Virus record (IMG/VR): IMGVR_UViG_3300042892_003815
Location: 1 to 64,000 of that record
Length of the DNA stretch: 64,000 bases
Direction: 5' to 3' (one strand)
Source: a virus
Below the pieces are notes generated by a model. It did no database searches, was not told where the DNA came from, and worked only from the letters and a program-made list of their open reading frames with translations. Of the stretch, positions 1 through 47,317 are shown one piece after another. How positions within the stretch are numbered: the stretch's first letter is position 1; each line of letters opens with the position of its first letter. Made by a program: the position numbers and the translations under genes.

Positions 1-815
1 ACTATTTTGTGTAAGTTTAGCTCTACTTTAGTTGTAATAAATGGATTTACTCTATTAAATGTAACATGATTTATAATCAATTCACATTCTTCCATTTTGA
101 GTACTTCTTTTACTTTATCTTTAATCTCATCATCACTATTCTTTACTAGAAATTGAAGTACATCATTGATTCCTTTTGCTAACTTAATAGTATTGTTGTC
201 ATCATCATATAAAGAAACTTGATCATATTTAGTTATTTCTTCTTCTGTAAACTTCGTATCGGCCGTTTTTAATCCAATTATATGTTGGAGTACTAATCTT
301 ACTTTTTTGTGTACTATATCGTCTCTATCTCTGTTATAGAATGTTTCTGATATGAAGTAGAAGTTCTTTATCTTTAAACCAAAATCTAATAGTTTTTCTT
401 CTAGTTTCTCAATTAGTGATTCATAACTCCTTTTAGAGTTTTTAGAACAAATAACATAAATATCATCTTGACTATTTTTAAGATGTCTAATATTTTCTAA
501 GTGTATTGTGAAATCACCATTTTCGATAATATCTTTGTTCATAAACTCTTGCATTGAGAAGGCAAGTTCTGATATATTTACATTATTATTTTTAGATTTG
601 ATTTTAATCTTATTAAAAAGTTCTTCACTTAGCCAATAAGTCTGTCCGTCTATATTAAAGTTTATATTATCTCTTTTATAAACACCTTTTCTTAAAAGAT
701 TAAATTCAGACTTTGATATTCTTATCAAAGGTTTATTAGGAGTTCGTGTATTTACTATCCAAACTTTACTATTCATTGTTATTAGACTATTAAGGTCAAA
801 GAAGTGTGCGTTCAT
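1..815 (-). CDS. HAD-like fold hypothetical protein (partial, runs off window start)
   Basis: Read manually: ATG at 815, open frame to base 1; MNAHFFDLNSL resembles a degenerate HAD motif I, VSLYDDD resembles motif IV; late box 4 nt upstream. Confidence 0.55.
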   Translation of the reverse strand, partial: MNAHFFDLNSLITMNSKVWIVNTRTPNKPLIRISKSEFNLLRKGVYKRDNINFNIDGQTYWLSEELFNKIKIKSKNNNVNISELAFSMQEFMNKDIIENGDFTIHLENIRHLKNSQDDIYVICSKNSKRSYESLIEKLEEKLLDFGLKIKNFYFISETFYNRDRDDIVHKKVRLVLQHIIGLKTADTKFTEEEITKYDQVSLYDDDNNTIKLAKGINDVLQFLVKNSDDEIKDKVKEVLKMEECELIINHVTFNRVNPFITTKVELNLHKI

Positions 816-24055: not shown

Positions 24056-27000
24056 TTACCAGTTAAACCAACCACCACCTCCGCTATTCCCGCCACCGGA
24101 TACACTAGTAGTTTGTACTTTACCTTCAGCTGCACCAGAAACATGTTGATCTAAAGTCATAGTAGTTTGATTTATATTACCTAATAATTGAATAATCATA
24201 TCAAGTTGTGCATGAGTATCCATTTTTGATTTACCTCCTGGTTTTCCTGGTGTTGTAGGTGCTGCTTTTTTGTCTCCAACTGCAGGACGTTTTGTTTTCG
24301 TACCATCATATTCAACCAACTTACTAAATACACTTGCTCTTTCTTCAAGAGTTTTCATCATATTTTCTAAATTATCCTGATTCATTGAAGCTAATACTGC
24401 TAAATTACCAGTTAGATTTCTTATTAGGTTGACCTTCTTACCATCTATTGATGAAAGTGCCCCACCAAATTTCTTCAATGATGTTGCTAACTTATCATAA
24501 GCTCCTGCAATAGTAATCATGCCTTTTGCCGCTTGTGAAATAGGATCTAAACCAAGTAATGATTTAACTCCACCGAAAACACCAGAATTTTTATTAGTAC
24601 TAGTTAAGTAATTTGCTAGTTTTGCATAGTCCATTACGTTTTTAGATAAATTCTTCATATAATTAGGATCAATATTTTTTGAAAAATATTGCCTTCCTGA
24701 CCATATAGTTTTTGCTACTTTTACTAATGAAAGTGCCACTAAATTAGTTTTTGCTAATCCCATTAAACTAGTACTTGCTAAACGACTACTTAAATTCCTA
24801 TATCCGGTTAAGTTTCTCGTTAAACTTGTAACAAAAGTAGTATTCATGGTGGTAAAATATCTCTTATTATTGGCTATAGTTTTAGCAGTATTTATTAATG
24901 ATCTTGTAACTAAGTTAATCTTTGTAATTGCAATGATTCCTATACCACTTGCAGTTTTTGCAATATTGGAAAATCCTTTAAATGAGGCGGCCACTGAATT
25001 AATCCAATCTTTACTTGGATATGAAGTAAATAGACCCTTACTAAAAACTTTATCAATATCTACTATTGCTTCTGCAACATCAGTAACACCACCTCCAAAA
25101 AAGTCTGCGAGTCCTCCTTTTAATACAGATAGAAATGATGTATCATCCATAATTTTTACAAATCCCGTTATAGAGTTTGCAACTCCATCTATCCAATCTT
25201 TGCTAGGAAACTTTTTAAATTTACCTTCTTCAAATATCTTATCTACTCCTAGTAATGTTGTTGCAACTGCCAAAATCGATAATGCACCCAAAACTATCAA
25301 TGGTAGAAAGATTGATAAACCAACTGCAATCAGTCCTGTATCAAGTATTGTTTTTGTAGCACCTTTTAACCAATCCTCATTAGGGAATTTTTTATATTTA
25401 CCTTCTTCAAATATCTTATCTACTGCAAGTATAGTTGCTGCAACTGCTAAGATAGAAACTGCTCCTATAATAATAAACGCTGCTAGTGGAGCTATTGCAG
25501 TTGCAATTAGTGCTAATCCTAGTATAATTGCAGTTGCACCCATTGCCCATTGAATTGATGGGAATTTCCCAACATCAAAATTACCTAGTCCAAATATTAA
25601 AGATACTCCTACAACAGTGGCTGCTACAAGAAGAATTACTCCTAAACCTGCATAGAAGAATGGATTTAAAACTTGTGTACCTAATAAGACCGCACCTATT
25701 CCAAAGGCGGCCAGACTTAAACCAACACCTAATGCCCACGAGACACTTGGATAATTTTCATATGCTCCTAGTCCTAGTATTAGTGAAGTTGCTACTATTA
25801 CTGCGGCAAGCACTAGTATTGCGGCGGCACCTAATGCAAGTGCAGCACCACCGATACCAGATTCGATTATTAAACCAAAAATAGTTGCTATTAAACCAAA
25901 TGCTAATATAGATGCTCCTGTACCAAGTAACCAATCCATGCCAGGATATGTATCATATTTACCCTCAGCGACTAAAAGTGATGATGCAGCGACAACGGCT
26001 GCTAATATAACAATACACAATCCACCTTCTATAATTTTCTTAACTCCTATTTTCGCGAGTACAAACGCAGCAAATCCCATTGCAATTGCAGATATTGCAA
26101 AAACAATAGAAAATACTACAATATTAAATAGTAGTGCATAATCAATTGGTGTAGTCTGTGCTAATATTTTAGAAGATAACATAATTGCAAGTGATAATGT
26201 CGTAAATAATAAAGGTAGTATAATAACATCCTTGGGTTTTATTTTTTCAATTGCGGGTGTCATTAGTTTAAGTGCAAATGCTAATACTACAAATACTATT
26301 GATATACCTATTGCAGTTAAAAATTGATCAAATCCTATAGGAGTTATTTTTGCTAAAAAGAATGATGATGCAGCTATTGCCATTGACATAGCAATTAGTA
26401 ATAAAGGCATAGATATTGCAGCAATTGCTACTTCTGCTGGATCTAATCCTTTAAACGCACCTATTAGTTTTTTGATTCCAAATGAAATTACTGTGAACAT
26501 TGCGGCAATTAAAATACCTGTTATTGCTTGTGCAAATGATATTGGAACTATCATCTGTAATACCCAAGATGATGCGGCAATACCCAATGCTATTGCAGGT
26601 AATATTAAAGGTAAAAATAAAATAGCTTTACCTAATGTTGTTATATCAGCACCTAGTGCATTTATTAGTTTTTTAATTCCAAACGCAATTACTGTAAACA
26701 TACCTGCAATTAAAATCGCTGTTATTGCTTGTCCGAATGATATAGGATTTATAAATGCTAATACCCAAGACGATAGTGTTATTCCTAACGCTATTGCAGG
26801 TAATAAAATTGGTAGAAAAACAATGGCTTTAACCAAAGTTCCTATATTCTCACCTAGTGCATTTATTAGTTTTTTAATTCCAAATGCAATTACTGTAAAC
26901 ATACCTGCAATTAAAATCGCTGTTATAGATTGTCCAAATGATATTGGTTTTATAAAAGATAGAACCCAAGATGATAGCATAATAGCTATAGACATTATAA

Positions 27001-27493
27001 CCATAACTTTACCAGCTACTATTGCCTCTTCAACGGTTATCTTGGCTTCTGCTACTTTCTGAAATGCGTGTGATATTAAAACGATTGCCAAACCAAGTGA
27101 GACGACTGATAAGAAGTCAACCTTGCCTATTATCTTAAATGCTAAACCAATTGCTAATACGGCAACTGCTATTAAAAGTATTGTAGTTACACCCTTTTTT
27201 AAATCACTCTGTTTTTTAGGATCTTCACCAGTTTCATCAATGGCATTTTTTTTGTCAGAGTCTTTCTGTTTCTGCATCTCTAAAATAGTGTTTTGTTTCT
27301 CCAAAATCTTTTTAGTGTCTGACTTAATAGATTTTAAGCTAACTGTAATTTCAGTTAGTTGTTTTGAGAAATTACCACTTTGTAAAGCATTTGTAGTTGT
27401 TGTATTACTACTATCTTTTTTTTCAAGTGCCTTTGAGATCATCTCAAGTGAATCTGATAAATTATTTAATGCTTCTAATAACTGTTTATCCAT
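24056..27493 (-). CDS. tape-measure-like protein with many hydrophobic segments
   Basis: Long Ala/Gly/Ile-rich helical protein with internal repeats; start moved to MDKQ (27493) because late box TAATATATAC lies 4 nt upstream. Confidence 0.6.
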   Translation of the reverse strand: MDKQLLEALNNLSDSLEMISKALEKKDSSNTTTTNALQSGNFSKQLTEITVSLKSIKSDTKKILEKQNTILEMQKQKDSDKKNAIDETGEDPKKQSDLKKGVTTILLIAVAVLAIGLAFKIIGKVDFLSVVSLGLAIVLISHAFQKVAEAKITVEEAIVAGKVMVIMSIAIMLSSWVLSFIKPISFGQSITAILIAGMFTVIAFGIKKLINALGENIGTLVKAIVFLPILLPAIALGITLSSWVLAFINPISFGQAITAILIAGMFTVIAFGIKKLINALGADITTLGKAILFLPLILPAIALGIAASSWVLQMIVPISFAQAITGILIAAMFTVISFGIKKLIGAFKGLDPAEVAIAAISMPLLLIAMSMAIAASSFFLAKITPIGFDQFLTAIGISIVFVVLAFALKLMTPAIEKIKPKDVIILPLLFTTLSLAIMLSSKILAQTTPIDYALLFNIVVFSIVFAISAIAMGFAAFVLAKIGVKKIIEGGLCIVILAAVVAASSLLVAEGKYDTYPGMDWLLGTGASILAFGLIATIFGLIIESGIGGAALALGAAAILVLAAVIVATSLILGLGAYENYPSVSWALGVGLSLAAFGIGAVLLGTQVLNPFFYAGLGVILLVAATVVGVSLIFGLGNFDVGKFPSIQWAMGATAIILGLALIATAIAPLAAFIIIGAVSILAVAATILAVDKIFEEGKYKKFPNEDWLKGATKTILDTGLIAVGLSIFLPLIVLGALSILAVATTLLGVDKIFEEGKFKKFPSKDWIDGVANSITGFVKIMDDTSFLSVLKGGLADFFGGGVTDVAEAIVDIDKVFSKGLFTSYPSKDWINSVAASFKGFSNIAKTASGIGIIAITKINLVTRSLINTAKTIANNKRYFTTMNTTFVTSLTRNLTGYRNLSSRLASTSLMGLAKTNLVALSLVKVAKTIWSGRQYFSKNIDPNYMKNLSKNVMDYAKLANYLTSTNKNSGVFGGVKSLLGLDPISQAAKGMITIAGAYDKLATSLKKFGGALSSIDGKKVNLIRNLTGNLAVLASMNQDNLENMMKTLEERASVFSKLVEYDGTKTKRPAVGDKKAAPTTPGKPGGKSKMDTHAQLDMIIQLLGNINQTTMTLDQHVSGAAEGKVQTTSVSGGGNSGGGGWFNW
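26450..26947 (-). repeat. three 201-bp (67-aa) intragenic repeats
   Basis: PISF(G/A)Q(S/A)IT(A/G)ILIA(G/A)MFTVI(A/S)FGIKKLI recurs; DNA matches at 26651 and 26852. Confidence 0.85.
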
Positions 27494-27584
27494 AAAAGTA
27501 TATATTAAAAAACTTAATCCTTTTAACATTTTATATATTTTTTACTATAATAAAAAATAATATATACTAAATAAAACAAATCAT

Positions 27585-28365: not shown

Positions 28366-29697
28366 ATGAGTAAATTAGTTACCTTAAATGGTATAAATGA
28401 TGAAGAATTATTAAATTCTTTATTTAGTAATGAAATATCTATTATAGAAGATATACAAGGAAGTAAAATTTGGGTTAATTGGAATGGTAAAGAATTTACA
28501 ATTAAAACTAAGAGTATTTCGAGTGAGCCAATCAATCTTATAGATTTAGCAATGCAGAATTATTATAATCCTGCAATAAATTATTTTAATTCTTTAGACA
28601 GTCGAGTAAAATCTTTGTTAAATAGAAAATGGTGGTTTTGTTTTGAATATTTTCCAGACGAACAACCTGCTAACATAGAGTATAGTAGAGTTCCTAAAAA
28701 CAAATTAGTTTTAACTGCGATAAATAAAGCAGGTAAGTATGAATTTGTTTTAGAAGAATTAAATGAATATGCAAGACTTTTTGATGTTGAGATTATACCA
28801 GTTGTTTTTCAAGGAAAACTAACTGATAAGATGATTGAGGCAATTAAATATTTTTTAAATACTAGTGAAGAGGATTTAGATTATATTTTTGGTGAAAAGT
28901 CATTTACATTTTTCTTTTATAAGATATTAAATCCACTTTCAGAAGGTTCATTTTTAATGGATGATGATTTTCAAAAAAATATTGAAAAGTTGATTATTAG
29001 AAATAACTCAGATGATATGTCATTTGAGTTACTAAATCCTTTATATACTAGACTAGGTGAGAATAATGATACGGAATTTGTGGAAATATATACACTTATA
29101 CTAATCAATTTCTTAAATTTTTGTCAATCCGTTGATTTAAAAGATATAAAACTAAAGGGTTCTACAAAAGATGAGATTTATATCTATCTAATATGTAAAC
29201 TTTATAATATCTATATTAGTGAAGTAAAACAGGATTTATTAGATTTTGATTTTGTAGTACCAGAATTTTTTGATAAAGATAAGTTTAAGATAAATACAGA
29301 ACTTATTTTAAATAAGATGACTAAAGAATATTTATCAGAATCTGAGAAACTTGAATATATCTTCAAAGTTATTCTTGGTTCATTCAGTAAGAAAAGAAAG
29401 AAAGCGATTGGTATATTTACTGATAATACAGTAAAACTATTCAATAAATTTATAGATGATATTGAAGATCATATTGGAACTTACTTACAAAGAATTAGTG
29501 AGATAGAATTGACAAGAGCTGGATTATTAGATTTTGGAGATTTCTTTGATATTCAATATGATGTTGATGGAGAAGGAGAAGTTTATCCAGATGTTTACTC
29601 TGAATTTGAAAAAGGAGTATCAAATGATAAAAAGAAAAAAGGTAAAGGTGGTAAAATGCCAATAGAGCCAATAAATACAACAAAAAAACCCATATAA
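28366..29697 (+). CDS. RNA-ligase (Rnl2)-fold protein, catalytic lysine apparently lost
   Basis: EDIQGS (motif I position), FCFEYF (III), IIPVVFQG (IIIa), EKLIIR (IV), FELLNP (V). Confidence 0.5.
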   Translation: MSKLVTLNGINDEELLNSLFSNEISIIEDIQGSKIWVNWNGKEFTIKTKSISSEPINLIDLAMQNYYNPAINYFNSLDSRVKSLLNRKWWFCFEYFPDEQPANIEYSRVPKNKLVLTAINKAGKYEFVLEELNEYARLFDVEIIPVVFQGKLTDKMIEAIKYFLNTSEEDLDYIFGEKSFTFFFYKILNPLSEGSFLMDDDFQKNIEKLIIRNNSDDMSFELLNPLYTRLGENNDTEFVEIYTLILINFLNFCQSVDLKDIKLKGSTKDEIYIYLICKLYNIYISEVKQDLLDFDFVVPEFFDKDKFKINTELILNKMTKEYLSESEKLEYIFKVILGSFSKKRKKAIGIFTDNTVKLFNKFIDDIEDHIGTYLQRISEIELTRAGLLDFGDFFDIQYDVDGEGEVYPDVYSEFEKGVSNDKKKKGKGGKMPIEPINTTKKPI

Positions 29698-29709
29698 AAA
29701 TGGGTTTTT
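29683..29709. terminator. terminator hairpin
   Basis: AAAAAAACCCAT-ATAAAA-ATGGGTTTTT. Confidence 0.7.
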
Positions 29710-29722
29710 CTAATATAGAAAT

Positions 29723-29932
29723 ATGAAAGAAATAAACTTAGAAATAAAGTCTGTTAGTGTAGAAGCAAAATCAAGAAAAATTAAATGTGAATATTCCAGA
29801 GAGTTAGTAACGGATCTAAATTCTTTTCACAATATTGATGTAGAGTCTGAATTAGAGAGATTATTGGGTAGTGAGATTAGAAAACAAAATAGAAAGAAAA
29901 AAATTGAAAATTTAACGAAACATACTGCTTAA
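29723..29932 (+). CDS. 69-aa stand-alone fragment resembling gp23-type capsid protein spine region
   Basis: VEAKSRKIKCEYSRELVTDLNSFHNIDVESELERLLGSEI matches the gp23 EAKSR-x-LKA-x-YS-x-ELAQDL-x-x-x-H-x-x-D-x-x-x-EL-x-x-IL-x-x-EI motif as recalled. Confidence 0.7.
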   Translation: MKEINLEIKSVSVEAKSRKIKCEYSRELVTDLNSFHNIDVESELERLLGSEIRKQNRKKKIENLTKHTA

Positions 29933-29948
29933 TTTTGATATAAAAACT

Positions 29949-31181
29949 ATGTATATTGAAAATGTAATAATCACTAAAGAAAGCTCTGAAAGCGTATCAA
30001 AACGCCTAGATGATAAATTATTTTCCCTTCAATTTTTACCAGAATGTTTATATGGAATATCAACTATAAAAACATTAGAATTTAATGGAGTTAAACTTAA
30101 AACAAACTATCTAATTGATATAGTACATAATTTAATATTAAAGTATTATTTTAAAAAAGAAAATCGATTCGCATTAAATGCCACTATTCTAAAAGATAAG
30201 TATGGCTATCTTTATAACTATTATATAAACTACTTGGTATCAAATCGTATTTTAATACTTAAAACAAACTATCAGAATGGAGTTACATCAAGAATATATG
30301 CATTAGATGAAAATATATTTACAGATAAAATAAAAAGATATAAAAATCTTGATAAAGTACTTTTAAAAAAGTATAAAAATAAATTTGTTGATATGATCCA
30401 TATCAATAATACTTCTAAAGTAAGTTTAATTGAACCTACTATAAAGGAAAAACTAGTATCTGATTTATTTAGTGTTAAAATTGAATATGATAGAGCAATT
30501 TTCTTCTTGGATTCCTTAAAACATCAAGATATAGACATTTACAATAGAAACATATACTCTGTTGATTGTATCAATGATAAACACATCTTCTACCACTTCG
30601 ATGATTATGGTAGAATGCATACAAACTATACAATACTTAAATCATTTATTAGAAAAAACTGTTTACTTATAGATGGTGAGGAAACTTGTGAGATTGATAT
30701 ACCAAATAGTCAACCACTTTTCCTAACTAAAATAATTGATATGGATTCCAGTTTAGTTGATGAAAAAGAATTTCAATTATTCAAAGAACTTACTACATCT
30801 GGAACATACTATCAATATGTTATGAGTCAATTAGGTGAGGATAATAAGAAAAAAGTTAAAGAGATGACATATAAAGTTCTTTTTGGTAGAAATATTACAT
30901 CAAGTAGGGTAGATAAGAATTTTAAAAAGTTATTCCCAACAATTCATCAGTTTATTAGAAATTATAAAAAGGAACATGGTGATTATAAAATTCTTGCTTA
31001 TGATTTACAAAAAGCAGAATCAGATTTAATTTTCAATACTGTTATAAAGAAAGTAATGCAATTTTATCCAGAAATAAAGCTAATAACAATACATGATAGT
31101 ATCGTTGTGCCTAGAAAATATAAAGAGGAAGTAAATCAAATTTTCGAAATAGAACTCAAAAAAGAGTTTAACATAAACTAA
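29949..31181 (+). CDS. family-A polymerase palm-like protein with N-terminal winged-helix-like region
   Basis: GRMHT, EIDIPNSQP (motif A), KEMTYKVLFG (motif B), LQKAES, TIHDSI (motif C). Confidence 0.65.
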   Translation: MYIENVIITKESSESVSKRLDDKLFSLQFLPECLYGISTIKTLEFNGVKLKTNYLIDIVHNLILKYYFKKENRFALNATILKDKYGYLYNYYINYLVSNRILILKTNYQNGVTSRIYALDENIFTDKIKRYKNLDKVLLKKYKNKFVDMIHINNTSKVSLIEPTIKEKLVSDLFSVKIEYDRAIFFLDSLKHQDIDIYNRNIYSVDCINDKHIFYHFDDYGRMHTNYTILKSFIRKNCLLIDGEETCEIDIPNSQPLFLTKIIDMDSSLVDEKEFQLFKELTTSGTYYQYVMSQLGEDNKKKVKEMTYKVLFGRNITSSRVDKNFKKLFPTIHQFIRNYKKEHGDYKILAYDLQKAESDLIFNTVIKKVMQFYPEIKLITIHDSIVVPRKYKEEVNQIFEIELKKEFNIN

Positions 31182-31197
31182 AAATAATATATAAGAA

Positions 31198-31356
31198 ATG
31201 AAAACATTTTATTTAAGAACAAAGAAATCAAAAGAGGTTTTAATAAAAACATCTTGTTATAGCATTGAAGAAGCAATTGAATACTTTTCAAAAGTTAAAC
31301 AATTACCAAAAAAAGATTTAGTAAGTATATTCATGATTACTGAGTCAGAAAAATAA
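31198..31356 (+). CDS. 52-aa small protein (not in ORF track)
   Basis: MKTFYLRTKKSKEVLIKTSCYSIEEAIEYFSKVKQLPKKDLVSIFMITESEK; TAATATATAA 3 nt upstream. Confidence 0.6.
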   Translation: MKTFYLRTKKSKEVLIKTSCYSIEEAIEYFSKVKQLPKKDLVSIFMITESEK

Positions 31357-31932: not shown

Positions 31933-32709
31933 TTATTTTATATGAAACCACATAATTCTATTTTTTAGACTCGGTGTTTCTTTCATAAAGTATTTATCTT
32001 CATTAAGTGATTTTATTACAAATAGTCCATCTTCACTACCGCCATTTATATCCGCTCTTAAAATAATAAATTTATCTTTTGAGATCACTTTAGATTCGAT
32101 TAAAGTATAATTTGCAACATTTACAAGTTGTTTATCTCCATAGAAATATTTTGATATAGTTTCTGGATGAACAATTAAAGTAGTTCCTGGACCACGTCTA
32201 TTTGTCGTCGCAATATAGTTGCCACAGCTAACTAATTTGGATATAATTCTTCTTTGATTGTACTCATAGTTCTCTTTATCTGTTTTACTAGTATCATTAG
32301 TTAAAGTTAAATCAAATGAAGACATTCCATTATTTAAAACTGGCTGTCCTTGTGTAAAGTTTTCCATATAGTTTATTAGATCTGTATGTAAGTCTTCGTA
32401 TGATGTAAAGTGTGTTGCTTGTATACTCATAGAAAATATCTTTAGACCCATAGTTGGTATTGTACTTTCATCAATTTTTGGTAAATCAACTCTTTTATTC
32501 CAAGCAGATTCCTCTTTTTCACCAGTCATAATATCAATTGCGAGTTCACGATTTTGTGATTTTGCTTTTAATTGATCTTCAAGTGTATTTTCTTCTACAT
32601 AATCTAGGTAAGAAATTTGTGCATTATTACCACTATGTTGTTTTTCAGAGAAATTACATAAGTACGTTATCTCTTTTTTTATTTCATCTTCGGTTTTAAA
32701 ATGTATCAT
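31933..32709 (-). CDS. protein containing a fragment of the major capsid fold
   Basis: QRRIISKLVSCGNYIATTNRRGPGTTLI aligns with in-window capsid QRKLITKIAHASNYIATEGRVGPAQYLI. Confidence 0.65.
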   Translation of the reverse strand: MIHFKTEDEIKKEITYLCNFSEKQHSGNNAQISYLDYVEENTLEDQLKAKSQNRELAIDIMTGEKEESAWNKRVDLPKIDESTIPTMGLKIFSMSIQATHFTSYEDLHTDLINYMENFTQGQPVLNNGMSSFDLTLTNDTSKTDKENYEYNQRRIISKLVSCGNYIATTNRRGPGTTLIVHPETISKYFYGDKQLVNVANYTLIESKVISKDKFIILRADINGGSEDGLFVIKSLNEDKYFMKETPSLKNRIMWFHIK

Positions 32710-46827: not shown

Positions 46828-47202
46828 ATGCTATATATGTACTTAAATAATAAAGAATTATACATCGAGATTATTGTGTCAAAGGCACAAGGTCGACTAA
46901 CAAGAAATGCGGAGAAAATGCTAGAGTTACTAGCAAAAAAGACAATAAGAAAAATGAGATACTGGTCAAATGATGATAAGTTAGATTGCTACCAAAGTGG
47001 TCTACTAGATATGTTTCAAAACTGGTTCAACTTTAATGAAGACAAATCAATCAATGCATTTGCGTATTTTACCGAAATATTTAAAAGAGGTTTGGCTAAA
47101 GGATGGAATGACCTTTATAAAAAGAAAGGAGATAACGAACATTTGATTAAACTTATTTCAATAAACGGTGCTAATGATGGAAATGGATTACACTCAATAT
47201 AA
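46828..47202 (+). CDS. gp55: late transcription sigma factor (T4 gp55-like, short)
   Basis: YLNNKELY, NFNEDKSINAFAYFTEI match gp55 YVNNKEL and NF-x-x-x-KS-x-NPFAYFTQI. Confidence 0.8.
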   Translation: MLYMYLNNKELYIEIIVSKAQGRLTRNAEKMLELLAKKTIRKMRYWSNDDKLDCYQSGLLDMFQNWFNFNEDKSINAFAYFTEIFKRGLAKGWNDLYKKKGDNEHLIKLISINGANDGNGLHSI

Positions 47203-47317
47203 GATACAAACATTTGATATAGTGACTGATCCAGGATTTGGATCAGTCAGTATAAAAAATTTATCTACTAAGAATTATATAAGAATGAAAATAATAAGAA
47301 ACTTATTTATTTTTTAG
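47183..47317 (+). CDS. 44-aa peptide containing prohead-protease C-terminal motif (not in ORF track)
   Basis: MDYTQYKIQTFDIVTDPGFGSVSIKNLSTKNYIRMKIIRNLFIF; 9/12 identity to TYDIVADPGFAS of 53963..56182. Confidence 0.6.
   Translation: MDYTQYKIQTFDIVTDPGFGSVSIKNLSTKNYIRMKIIRNLFIF

What the first reader, a model, noticed from the sequence alone, without database searches (positions are those of the whole stretch)
29723..29932. 69-aa mini-capsid fragment closer to canonical T4 gp23 than to this phage's own capsid
Seen: EAKSRKIKCEYSRELVTDLNSFHNIDVESELERLLGSEI. The equivalent in-window capsid segment is much more diverged (AVGTIEVSSALRRTEIEDIKANTGMDIVQKMESILVNEL). From memory of T4 gp23 (EAKSRQLKAAYSIELAQDLRAVHGMDADAELSGILATEI) about 20 of 39 positions match. 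Ends in RKKKIENL. Inference: captured from another T4-like phage; candidate immune decoy or competitor-assembly poison.
Basis: partly seen in the sequence, partly recalled or inferred. Interest (0 to 1): 0.75.

Follow-up and report, generated by a model that had tools for sequence, protein, structure and literature searches.

The report
Mini capsid-fragment gene of huge phages
A conserved 69-residue gene of a large group of half-megabase phages copies the piece of the T4-type capsid protein that sets contacts between capsid building blocks, and belongs to a family of tiny proteins made of head-protein pieces with a shared tail; it probably tunes head assembly, but this is untested.

Summary
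It barely resembles the phage's own 573-aa capsid protein (56271..57992).

The 'captured from another phage' reading is not supported.
- The gene is old. There are 72 clusters of 63-81-aa homologues plus about 25 more divergent clusters, on contigs up to 649 kb.
- Synteny is identical in 8 relatives, and dN/dS is 0.17-0.37.
- It does not nest within sampled canonical capsids.
- Its C-terminal helix aligns with the own-type capsid's helix end (SKQIVNKIF).

It also belongs to a wider set. The complete relative LR745206 has 16 small ORFs (35-83 aa) ending in an R-K-x-K-I-x-x-I-F tail, against 0.3 expected. Their heads include other capsid pieces and scaffold repeats; a relaxed-tail ORF in the window copies a prohead-protease strand.

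The copied segment holds the T4 head-length mutation cluster 268-287.

Best reading: an ancient partial paralogue of the capsid gene that acts as a small interface-mimic modulator of head assembly. That mechanism is inferred, not shown. Poisoning of rival capsids or an immune decoy remain possible. An earlier first-reader note on this window had listed dispersed head-protein fragments.

The parts
29681..29712 (.). 13-bp hairpin (terminator-like) between the 443-aa gene and the mini-ORF
   Evidence: Terminator scan: 1 found against 0.0 expected in shuffles. The stem is kept by compensatory changes in relatives (alignment A2).
29712..29719 (+). AATATAGA box 3 nt before the ATG. It is a one-mismatch copy of the AATATATA box that precedes the portal, protease-scaffold and capsid genes. 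Candidate phage-type (late?) promoter; inferred only.
   Evidence: Upstream-region survey. Variants of the box are kept in relatives. A gp55-type late sigma gene lies at 46828..47202 (PHROG 234, E 2.5e-7).
29723..29932 (+). Mini-capsid gene, 69 aa
29723..29797 (+). Residues 1-25: extended stretch equivalent to T4 gp23 I-domain linker 2 (the E-loop return strand)
   Evidence: Alignment to gp23 248-304. AF2 model shows no regular structure here, pLDDT 70-79. Linker definition from PMC9546572.
29798..29824 (+). Residues 26-34: short helix equivalent to the short, negatively charged P-domain helix of gp23. The T4 head-length (ptg) mutation cluster 268-287 falls in and around it.
   Evidence: AF2 helix 26-34. 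Numbering. ptg cluster and its role in contacts between capsomers at quasi-threefold axes from PMC9546572.
29840..29887 (+). Residues 40-55: first half of the spine helix. Homology to canonical capsids ends at IRKQ, aligned to IDRE.
   Evidence: hhalign A1 against A3: probability 99%, E 3e-18. AF2 helix 40-65, pLDDT about 90-96.
29888..29920 (+). Residues 56-66 (NRKKKIENLTK): basic amphipathic tail that continues the long helix. It is shared with other miniproteins and aligns with the own-type capsid's SKQIVNKIF.
   Evidence: Invariant in A1. Present in divergent members. Enriched at the C-termini of small ORFs. hhalign A5 against A6 runs through the tail. The DNA here is also invariant among close relatives.
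29930..29946 (+). TAATTTTG (overlapping the stop codon) and TATAAAAA boxes before the next gene (29949..31181). These are probable promoter elements of that gene and explain part of the DNA-level invariance of the tail region.
   Evidence: Alignment A2. Box survey. That TAnnTTTG is the Bacteroidota -7 element is my own knowledge.
47168..47317 (+). Sibling miniprotein (44-49 aa): a copy of the prohead-protease strand (FDIVTDPGF) followed by the tail IRMKIIRNLF
   Evidence: Matches protease-scaffold residues 144-161 (E 0.012). Homologue in LR745206 at 189488..189649 (E 2e-5), which weakly hits PHROG 207 head maturation protease (E 0.07).
31933..32709 (-). 258-aa fast-evolving paralogue of the own capsid's A-domain, 2 kb from the mini-gene
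   Evidence: BLASTP against own capsid residues 404-481, E 7e-7. dN/dS 0.23-0.32. One to three copies of 246-272 aa in three of five other large phages searched.
53963..56182 (+). 739-aa protease-scaffold fusion (parent of two sibling miniproteins): protease domain, about 12 repeats of 14 aa (YSEYLAENLDKNI), an acidic region and a C-terminal domain
   Evidence: Sequence. Hit by the 83-aa miniprotein of LR745206 at E 1e-17 and by the 47183 miniprotein.
56271..57992 (+). Own full-length major capsid protein (573 aa). The segment equivalent to the mini is residues 316-377.
   Evidence: Pfam Gp23 106 bits. Residues 316-384 are almost entirely invariant in 30 relatives and near-identical in distant relatives.

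Best explanation
WHAT IT IS (well supported). The ORF is a genuine, conserved small gene of a large clade of huge phages (contigs of about 0.14 to 0.65 Mb, low G+C). It is an ancient partial paralogue of the T4-type major capsid protein. It covers I-domain linker 2 (the E-loop equivalent), the short P-domain helix and the first half of the spine helix (T4 gp23 248-304).

It ends in a basic amphipathic helical tail of the type R-K-x-K-I-x-x-I/L-F/L/T. It keeps canonical characters that the lineage's full-length capsid lost, including about 7 residues of the strand. Its tail matches the own-type capsid's helix end.

It is one member of a family of 35-83-aa miniproteins built as 'piece of a head protein plus the same tail'. 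The pieces are capsid strand and helices, capsid helix alone, capsid C-terminus, prohead-protease strand and scaffold repeats.

HOW IT WORKS (inferred, not shown). It acts as an interface mimic in head assembly. The copied capsid segment is the one that, in T4, sets the charge contacts and angles between capsomers at the quasi-threefold axes, and it holds a head-length mutation cluster. The tail would dock the miniprotein on a common prohead partner, either the capsid protein or the acidic scaffold. The miniprotein would then cap or compete for capsomer-capsomer or shell-core contacts. That would tune nucleation, curvature or size of a very large head, in the way the 72-aa CpmB tunes capsid size through a C-terminal helix and basic hook.
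For: Real gene:
- 72 clusters of 63-81 aa at 63-100% identity, on contigs up to 649 kb.
- The exhaustive search finds about 25 more divergent mini clusters that match the whole profile including the tail.
- Identical synteny in 8 loci.
- dN/dS 0.17-0.37 among the IMG/VR relatives, against 0.02-0.09 for the flanking genes.

Homology:
-.
- The model gives a short helix plus one long helix running through the tail.

Old and lineage-linked:
- Every large relative examined has one own-type capsid plus the mini.
- The capsid segment is near-invariant while the minis diverge.
- The minis lie outside the canonical clade.
- The tail aligns with SKQIVNKIF in a 62-column colinear profile alignment, E 2e-4.
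- The motif background is about 0.03 per 1000 aa.

Family:
- 16 C-terminal tails in LR745206 against 0.3 expected.
- The tails use different synonymous codons and have different downstream contexts.
- Heads match scaffold repeats (E 1e-17), the protease strand, and capsid pieces (Pfam E 2e-4 and 5e-4; BLASTP 1.5e-8).

Segment function in T4: PMC9546572.

Precedents:
- CpmB and the 80alpha scaffold C-terminal helix-and-hook compete for the capsid protein and change the angles between capsomers (PMC5644958).
- A capsid homologue, Ccm, redirects assembly (PMC5052747).
Against: - No binding, packaging or expression data exist.
- In this window the gene is not in a head operon. Its neighbours are a 443-aa protein of unknown family and a polymerase-palm-like protein.
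- If it acted on the own capsid by mimicry, one would expect it to resemble the own segment, yet it resembles canonical capsids more.
- It evolves 3-8 times faster than its neighbours. In LR745206 the orthologue is shortened and much diverged (33% over 33 aa; dN/dS 0.71 from a poor, near-saturated alignment). That fits an arms race or relaxed constraint as well as an assembly role.
- Part of the tail's invariance among close relatives is at the DNA level and may reflect the next gene's promoter.
- The tail-to-capsid-helix match was noticed post hoc.
- This Gp23 segment is the most conserved of the family, so fragments of it are the easiest to detect.
Confidence: 0.4

Rival explanations
1. Competitor-assembly poison. 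The miniprotein mimics the most conserved contact segment between capsomers of canonical T4-type capsids and blocks or derails head assembly of co-infecting T4-like phages. The phage's own capsid is immune because its equivalent segment has diverged.
For: The mini is canonical-like and the own capsid is not. The mimicked segment controls contacts between capsomers and head length in T4. It evolves faster than its neighbours. Ccm shows that a capsid homologue can interfere with another element's capsid.
Against: Sibling miniproteins with the same tail copy the phage's own protease-scaffold, which suggests action on its own assembly. There is no close canonical donor or target. The minis vary widely (35-50% identity across the clade) while the canonical segment is highly conserved. 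No evidence shows that T4-like phages share these hosts.
Confidence: 0.17
2. Head-packaged small cargo. The tail is a C-terminal capsid- or core-targeting peptide that loads the miniproteins into the prohead, and the head-protein-like part is mostly evolutionary baggage. This would be a second route alongside the N-terminal leader that other scan notes report on many genes of this phage.
For: A shared C-terminal tail on at least 16 otherwise different small proteins. The tail is basic and amphipathic, like scaffold C-termini that bind capsid proteins. Earlier scan notes on this genome describe a large set of genes with a T4-like N-terminal targeting leader (unchecked here).
Against: It does not explain why several heads are pieces of head proteins, nor why the capsid-like core keeps the family's conserved residues under purifying selection. 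No virion proteome exists.
Confidence: 0.15
3. Immune decoy. The miniprotein binds, without triggering, a host defence sensor that recognises a conserved capsid (or protease) epitope.
For: Capsid proteins and prohead proteases are known triggers of bacterial defence systems (my own knowledge, for example CapRel and CBASS studies; not checked here). The siblings copy capsid and protease pieces. Evolution is relatively fast.
Against: A decoy for the phage's own capsid should look like the own, invariant segment, and it does not. The scaffold-repeat mimic does not fit. No defence gene or partner is linked to it.
Confidence: 0.08
4. Recent foreign capture or decaying relic with no function of its own. 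The ORF is a leftover gp23 fragment kept open by chance or by the overlapping promoter of the next gene.
For: The last 65 nt are constrained at the DNA level. The LR745206 orthologue is shortened and much diverged (33% over 33 aa; dN/dS 0.71 from a poor alignment).
Against: Length and frame are conserved in about 100 clusters. dN/dS is 0.17-0.37 with dS 0.3-0.8. Residues outside the promoter-overlapping part are invariant. Synteny holds across a deep clade.
Confidence: 0.07

Closest known systems
T4 gp23 major capsid protein (Pfam PF07068), segment 248-304
   Same: Clear sequence homology. Same order of elements: linker strand, short P-domain helix, spine helix.
   Different: Only about 55 of 521 residues are present, so there is no N-arm, insertion domain, A-domain or P-loop and it cannot form a shell subunit. 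It adds a basic tail that canonical capsids lack.
T4 gp24 vertex protein (full-length paralogue of gp23)
   Same: A capsid-gene paralogue kept beside the main capsid gene.
   Different: gp24 is a complete HK97 fold. The mini matches gp23 (E 3e-8) far better than gp24 (E 0.04).
SaPI1 CpmB and the phage 80alpha scaffolding protein C-terminus (PMC5644958)
   Same: About 70-aa helical protein with a C-terminal amphipathic helix and a basic motif. CpmB competes for a site on the capsid protein and alters the angles between capsomers. This is the proposed mode of action.
   Different: No sequence homology was tested or seen. CpmB is encoded by a satellite and mimics the scaffold, not the capsid. Binding of the mini to any partner has not been shown.
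SaPIbov5 Ccm (PMC5052747)
   Same: A capsid-protein homologue that is not the shell protein and redirects capsid assembly.
   Different: Ccm is a full HK97 fold with a delta domain and is encoded by a satellite to parasitise a helper phage. The mini is a 69-aa fragment in the phage's own conserved backbone.
Truncated, presumably inactive prohead-protease paralogue of SPN3US-type giant phages (PMC5694885)
   Same: Giant phages keep diverged, truncated paralogues of head-morphogenesis genes.
   Different: That one is a domain-sized paralogue without a shared tail. Here the pieces are 35-83 aa and carry a common C-terminal motif.
T4 capsid-targeting sequence on the internal proteins IPI, IPII and IPIII
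   Same: A short shared peptide on unrelated small head-associated proteins.
   Different: The T4 sequence is N-terminal and is cleaved. The mini starts MKEINLEIKS and has no such leader; its shared motif is C-terminal.

Membership tests
Pfam Gp23 (PF07068), T4-type major capsid protein | Significant match to the family profile above the gathering score | tested here: met
   56.4 bits against a cut-off of 24.4, E 4.4e-15. hhalign against 31 full-length capsids: probability 99%.
Pfam Gp23 (PF07068), T4-type major capsid protein | Complete HK97-type fold (N-arm, P and A domains) able to form capsomers | tested here: not met
   Only profile positions 131-185 of 376 are covered. The 69-aa model is an extended stretch plus two helices. 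It is a fragment of the family, not a capsid protein.
T4 gp24-type vertex protein | Closer to gp24 than to gp23, and full length | tested here: not met
   gp23 E 3e-8 against gp24 E 0.04. Length is 69 aa.
Tail-tagged head-fragment miniproteins (family defined here) | Small ORF (35-83 aa) with R-K-x-K-I-x-x-I/L-F/L/Y within the last 23 residues or so | tested here: met
   The tail NRKKKIENLTK fits, except that T replaces F/L/Y in this subfamily. Divergent members of the same family end ...KIF or ...KIL. Enrichment is 16 against 0.3 expected in LR745206.
Tail-tagged head-fragment miniproteins (family defined here) | The part before the tail is homologous to a segment of a head-morphogenesis protein | tested here: met
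   Gp23 segment. Siblings: scaffold repeats E 1e-17, protease strand E 0.012, capsid C-terminus and helix. Most other members have heads of unknown origin.
CpmB / scaffold-type capsid-binding C-terminal helix | C-terminal amphipathic helix with a basic motif on a small helical protein | tested here: met
   AF2 helix 40-65 at pLDDT about 90-96, including the tail. Compare the description in PMC5644958. This is a resemblance in form only.
CpmB / scaffold-type capsid-binding C-terminal helix | Binds the major capsid protein | tested here: inconclusive
   The single complex prediction gave no verdict. See Tried and rejected. Experiment is needed.
T4 CTS-tagged internal head proteins | N-terminal capsid-targeting leader ending at a protease site | tested here: not met
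   The N-terminus MKEINLEIKS differs from the MKYLKxFExF-type leaders noted on other genes of this window.
Satellite-encoded capsid redirectors (Ccm type) | Encoded by a satellite or island and aimed at a helper phage | tested here: not met
   The gene lies in the conserved, syntenic backbone of the phage in 8 relatives.

The most novel reading that the evidence does not exclude
Huge phages run a modular 'bait plus tail' system. It consists of a dozen or more miniproteins, each displaying a short copy of an interface element of the capsid protein, the prohead protease or the scaffold, all joined to one docking helix. Together they would control nucleation, curvature and size of a giant head. 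Alternatively, they would sabotage the heads of rival phages that share those interfaces. The 69-aa ORF would be the member that carries the capsid-length-determining segment.
Probability: 0.25. Interest if true: 0.85.

Novelty: new variant of a known kind. Interest (0 to 1): 0.62.

Why it matters
How the largest phages build correctly sized heads hundreds of capsomers in extent is an open question.

This finding offers a conserved, easily cloned set of tiny genes. They copy the capsid element that in T4 holds head-length mutations, and they also copy pieces of the protease and the scaffold. That makes the size-control question directly testable by co-expression and electron microscopy.

If instead they poison rival capsids, they would be a new kind of phage-versus-phage weapon and a source of natural peptide inhibitors of HK97-fold assembly.

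The finding also shows that short ORFs usually discarded in annotation can be conserved paralogous fragments with their own shared motif.

Tried and rejected
- Complex prediction of the own capsid protein (alignment A6) with the mini (A5): no verdict. This is no evidence either way.
- Foldseek of the mini model against the PDB: no match. The model is too small and too helical.
Context came from the search for related loci and the genome search instead.
- The 'longer' homologue search by shared words found nothing. tblastn and the exhaustive profile search did find full-length capsids.
- Idea that the tail is only the translation of a shared DNA element: rejected for the family as a whole, because the tails use different codons and sit in different contexts. 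It is kept in part for close relatives of this ORF.
- Idea that the tail is a sliding-clamp-binding motif because a gp55-type sigma is nearby: that sigma ends differently. Dropped.
- Idea that the tail equals the scaffold's C-terminus: the 739-aa protease-scaffold has no such motif.
- Guess that a 79-aa LR745206 miniprotein is a polymerase B fragment: no Pfam support, and only a weak match to a ribonucleotide-reductase PHROG family (phrog_367, E 0.13).
- Earlier-note candidates 36419 and 51074 as head-protein fragments: no significant family hit here.
- Xoo-sp13's second match is a 380-aa capsid-like protein, not a mini.
- PDB numbering for the capsid C-terminal mimics could not be obtained. 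Their overlap with the second T4 head-length cluster (457-461) therefore rests on my memory of the T4 sequence only.
- Alignment-based locus search with the divergent minis failed, and one single-protein scan found nothing.

Full report
**1. The observation**

The ORF at 29723..29932 (+) exists as described: 69 aa, ATG start, ending ...RKKKIENLTKHTA.
- It matches Pfam Gp23 at E 4.4e-15 (56 bits, profile 131-185 of 376).
- It matches PHROG 138, 'major head protein', at E 1.1e-14.

The window is the first 64 kb of a 190,950-bp virus record estimated to be one third complete, with G+C of 28.5%. Its only DNA-level relative among deposited phages is the 634,780-bp uncultured phage LR745206.1.

The window's own capsid gene is 56271..57992 (573 aa, Gp23 106 bits).
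- BLASTP between the mini and this capsid finds nothing.
- Against 30 canonical full-length capsids, the mini core has 19-25 identities over 50-53 residues. Against the own capsid it has 10 of 49.
- A profile of the mini family hits solved T4 gp23 at residues 248-304 (E 3e-8) and gp24 only at 0.04.
- A profile of the whole own-type capsid finds no solved structure at all.

**2. It is a conserved gene, not a one-off fragment**

- A word-based search found 72 clusters of 63-81-aa proteins at 63-100% identity, all carrying the Gp23 hit, on contigs up to 649 kb.
- The exhaustive profile search found 875 matches. About 25 of the best 150 are further, more divergent miniproteins of 56-74 aa. These match the whole profile including the C-terminal tail, whereas full-length capsids match only positions 3-58.
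- In LR745206 and seven IMG/VR loci the gene sits in identical synteny, between a 443-aa and a 410-aa gene.
- Pairwise dN/dS among the IMG/VR relatives is 0.17-0.37 with dS 0.3-0.8. That indicates purifying selection, but 3-8 times more relaxed than in the two flanking genes (0.02-0.09).
- In LR745206 the orthologue is shortened to 61 aa and much diverged (33% over 33 aa). Its dN/dS of 0.71 comes from a poor, near-saturated alignment.

**3. Anatomy**

The AlphaFold2 model (45-sequence alignment, mean pLDDT 80) shows three parts:
- an extended stretch, residues 1-25;
- a short helix, residues 26-34;
- one long helix, residues 40-65, which runs through the tail.

By the numbering, and by the T4 head structure paper PMC9546572, these correspond to I-domain linker 2 (the E-loop equivalent), the short negatively charged P-domain helix and the first half of the spine helix.

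That paper places one cluster of head-length mutations (A268V, A275T, D285V, D287V/N) at this short helix. The helix makes charge contacts with neighbouring capsomers at the quasi-threefold axes. The whole cluster lies inside the mini.

Upstream there is a 13-bp hairpin kept by compensatory changes. There is also an AATATAGA box 3 nt before the ATG. It is a one-mismatch copy of the AATATATA box found before the portal, protease-scaffold and capsid genes. A gp55-type late sigma gene is present. Late expression is an inference only.

**4. The tail and the wider family**

The Gp23 search of LR745206 gave two more weak hits in small ORFs, which matched other parts of the profile. These, and a neighbouring small ORF, end in the same kind of tail as the mini.

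A strict pattern for the tail occurs 16 times within the last 23 or so residues of ORFs of 35-83 aa in LR745206. Twenty shuffles give 0.3 (maximum 1), reversed sequences give 1, and internal occurrences are at background.

The tails use different synonymous codons and have different downstream contexts, so the motif is a protein feature.

The parts before the tail include:
- capsid helix (Pfam Gp23 E 5e-4; 51% identity to canonical capsids);
- capsid C-terminus (Pfam E 2e-4; BLASTP 1.5e-8);
- the 14-aa repeats of the 739/707-aa protease-scaffold gene upstream of the capsid gene (E 1e-17);
- in the window itself, a relaxed-tail ORF (47168..47317, ending IRMKIIRNLF) that copies a protease strand (E about 0.01, with a clear orthologue in LR745206).

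The window's genome also holds the tandem pair seen in LR745206. It consists of a 45-aa tailed ORF followed by a 76-aa ORF that matches the own capsid's residues 505-552 (E 2e-8).

In LR745206 the strand-plus-short-helix piece and the spine-helix piece are two separate miniproteins, each with its own tail. The latter keeps the canonical helix continuation and then adds the tail. The tail therefore behaves as a module.

An earlier first-reader note on this window had listed dispersed head-protein fragments. I could confirm 29723, 31933 and 47183, but not 36419 or 51074.

**5. Origin**

Five other large records (143-436 kb) carrying divergent minis each have exactly one full-length capsid gene. 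Four of these capsid genes were extracted and are own-type, with an equivalent segment virtually identical to the window's; in the fifth record no full-length capsid was found. In two of the records the capsid-derived genes lie within 10-15 kb of the capsid gene.

In 30 close relatives, capsid residues 316-384 are almost entirely invariant.

The evidence on origin is as follows.
- The minis score higher against the canonical consensus than against the capsid of their own genome in every case where the capsid was extracted.
- They are about equally distant from all canonical capsids.
- In a tree of the segment, the 30 canonical capsids form one side of a branch (SH-aLRT 98.7) against the minis plus own-type capsids. 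That tree has only 67 columns, so resolution is weak.
- A profile-profile alignment of the minis to own-type capsids is colinear over 62 columns (E 2e-4) and places the tail on the capsid's SKQIVNKIF. Such a motif occurs about 0.03 times per 1000 residues.

The mini thus combines canonical characters with an own-type character. The simplest account is a partial duplication of an early capsid gene of this lineage. The full-length gene was later remodelled, losing about 7 residues of the strand, and then froze.

Recent capture from another phage is not supported. An ancient capture cannot be excluded.

**6. Mechanism**

Nothing is shown directly. Three facts guide the inference.
- The copied segment is the one that mediates contacts between capsomers and determines length in T4.
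- Siblings copy the phage's own protease and scaffold.
- All share one helical, basic, amphipathic tail that resembles the capsid's own helix end.

I therefore favour an interface-mimic role in the phage's own head assembly (about 40%).

The best functional precedent is CpmB. It is a 72-aa protein whose C-terminal helix and basic hook compete with the scaffold for the capsid protein and change the angles between capsomers (PMC5644958). Ccm shows that a capsid homologue can redirect assembly (PMC5052747). SPN3US-type phages keep a truncated protease paralogue (PMC5694885).

Rival readings are a poison for canonical T4-like rivals (17%), tail-directed packaging as cargo (15%), an immune decoy (8%) and a relic (7%).

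Against my favoured reading:
- the mini resembles canonical capsids more than its own;
- it is not in a head operon here, since the downstream neighbour looks polymerase-palm-like (a lead only);
- it evolves relatively fast.

**7. Novelty**

Capsid paralogues, capsid-homologue interference and scaffold-mimic miniproteins are known. I did not find in the papers searched a conserved family of 35-83-aa genes made of fragments of capsid, protease and scaffold joined to one shared C-terminal motif. I rate it a new variant of a known kind, of moderate to high interest.

Noticed in passing
LR745206.1 (loci L015-L046): 83154-83393, 189488-189649, 222206-222391, 255010-255237, 255215-255367, 261394-261501, 308071-308196, 308177-308380, 440173-440361, 444032-444151, 460435-460686, 482039-482179, 485539-485694, 597888-598046, 598645-598758, 608315-608455: Sixteen small ORFs (35-83 aa) end in the R-K-x-K-I-x-x-I-F type tail, against 0.3 expected by shuffling. 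Most of the parts before the tail have no identified parent gene.
   Followed up: partly
window 31933..32709 (-): A 258-aa protein is a fast-evolving paralogue of the own capsid's A-domain (BLASTP E 7e-7; dN/dS 0.23-0.32). Other large relatives carry one to three such genes of 246-272 aa.
   Followed up: partly
window 53963..56182 (+): A 739-aa fusion of a prohead protease domain, about 12 tandem 14-aa repeats (YSEYLAENLDKNI), a very acidic Glu/His-rich region and a C-terminal domain lies directly upstream of the capsid gene. It is a probable protease-scaffold.
   Followed up: partly
window 29949..31181 (+): The 410-aa conserved neighbour ends with an ...ITIHDSIVV... motif. Its nearest ESM Atlas clusters are auto-named 'DNA polymerase family A palm domain-containing protein' (score 0.97). 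There is no Pfam or PHROG hit.
   Followed up: partly
window, upstream of many genes (e.g. 49264, 53963, 56271, 58496, 3565, 27585; directly before the ATG at 31198, 31367, 34717, 42426, 43851, 44455): A recurrent AATATATA box occurs in two spacing classes: 20-40 nt before the ATG, or only 4-6 nt before it. The latter would give leaderless or near-leaderless mRNAs. Other genes (2911, 33663, 53369, 60486) have TAnnTTTG boxes like host Bacteroidota promoters.
   Followed up: no
window 29868..29948: The last 50 nt or so of the mini-ORF and the 16-nt spacer to the next gene are almost invariant at the DNA level in six relatives, although dS elsewhere is 0.3-0.8. This looks like an overlapping regulatory element for the next gene.
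   Followed up: partly
window 46828..47202 (+): A 124-aa gp55-type late sigma factor (PHROG 234, E 2.5e-7) is immediately followed by, and overlaps, the protease-strand miniprotein.
   Followed up: no
G000:C1:146532-146669 and 146656-146886 (locus L077 233..370 and 357..587): A tandem pair outside the window: a 45-aa tailed miniprotein, then a 76-aa copy of the own capsid's residues 505-552 with an internal tail-like insert (FRKSKIRRLL). The same arrangement occurs in LR745206 at 255367-255010.
   Followed up: partly
window 56271..57992: The own-type capsid is so diverged that a 30-sequence profile of it finds no solved structure at E <= 0.001. Yet its residues 316-384 are almost entirely invariant across the clade.
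   Followed up: partly
window 24056..27529 (-): A 1157-aa protein made largely of repeated transmembrane-like segments. It evolves fast (37-88% identity in relatives whose neighbouring genes are 76-99% identical).
   Followed up: no
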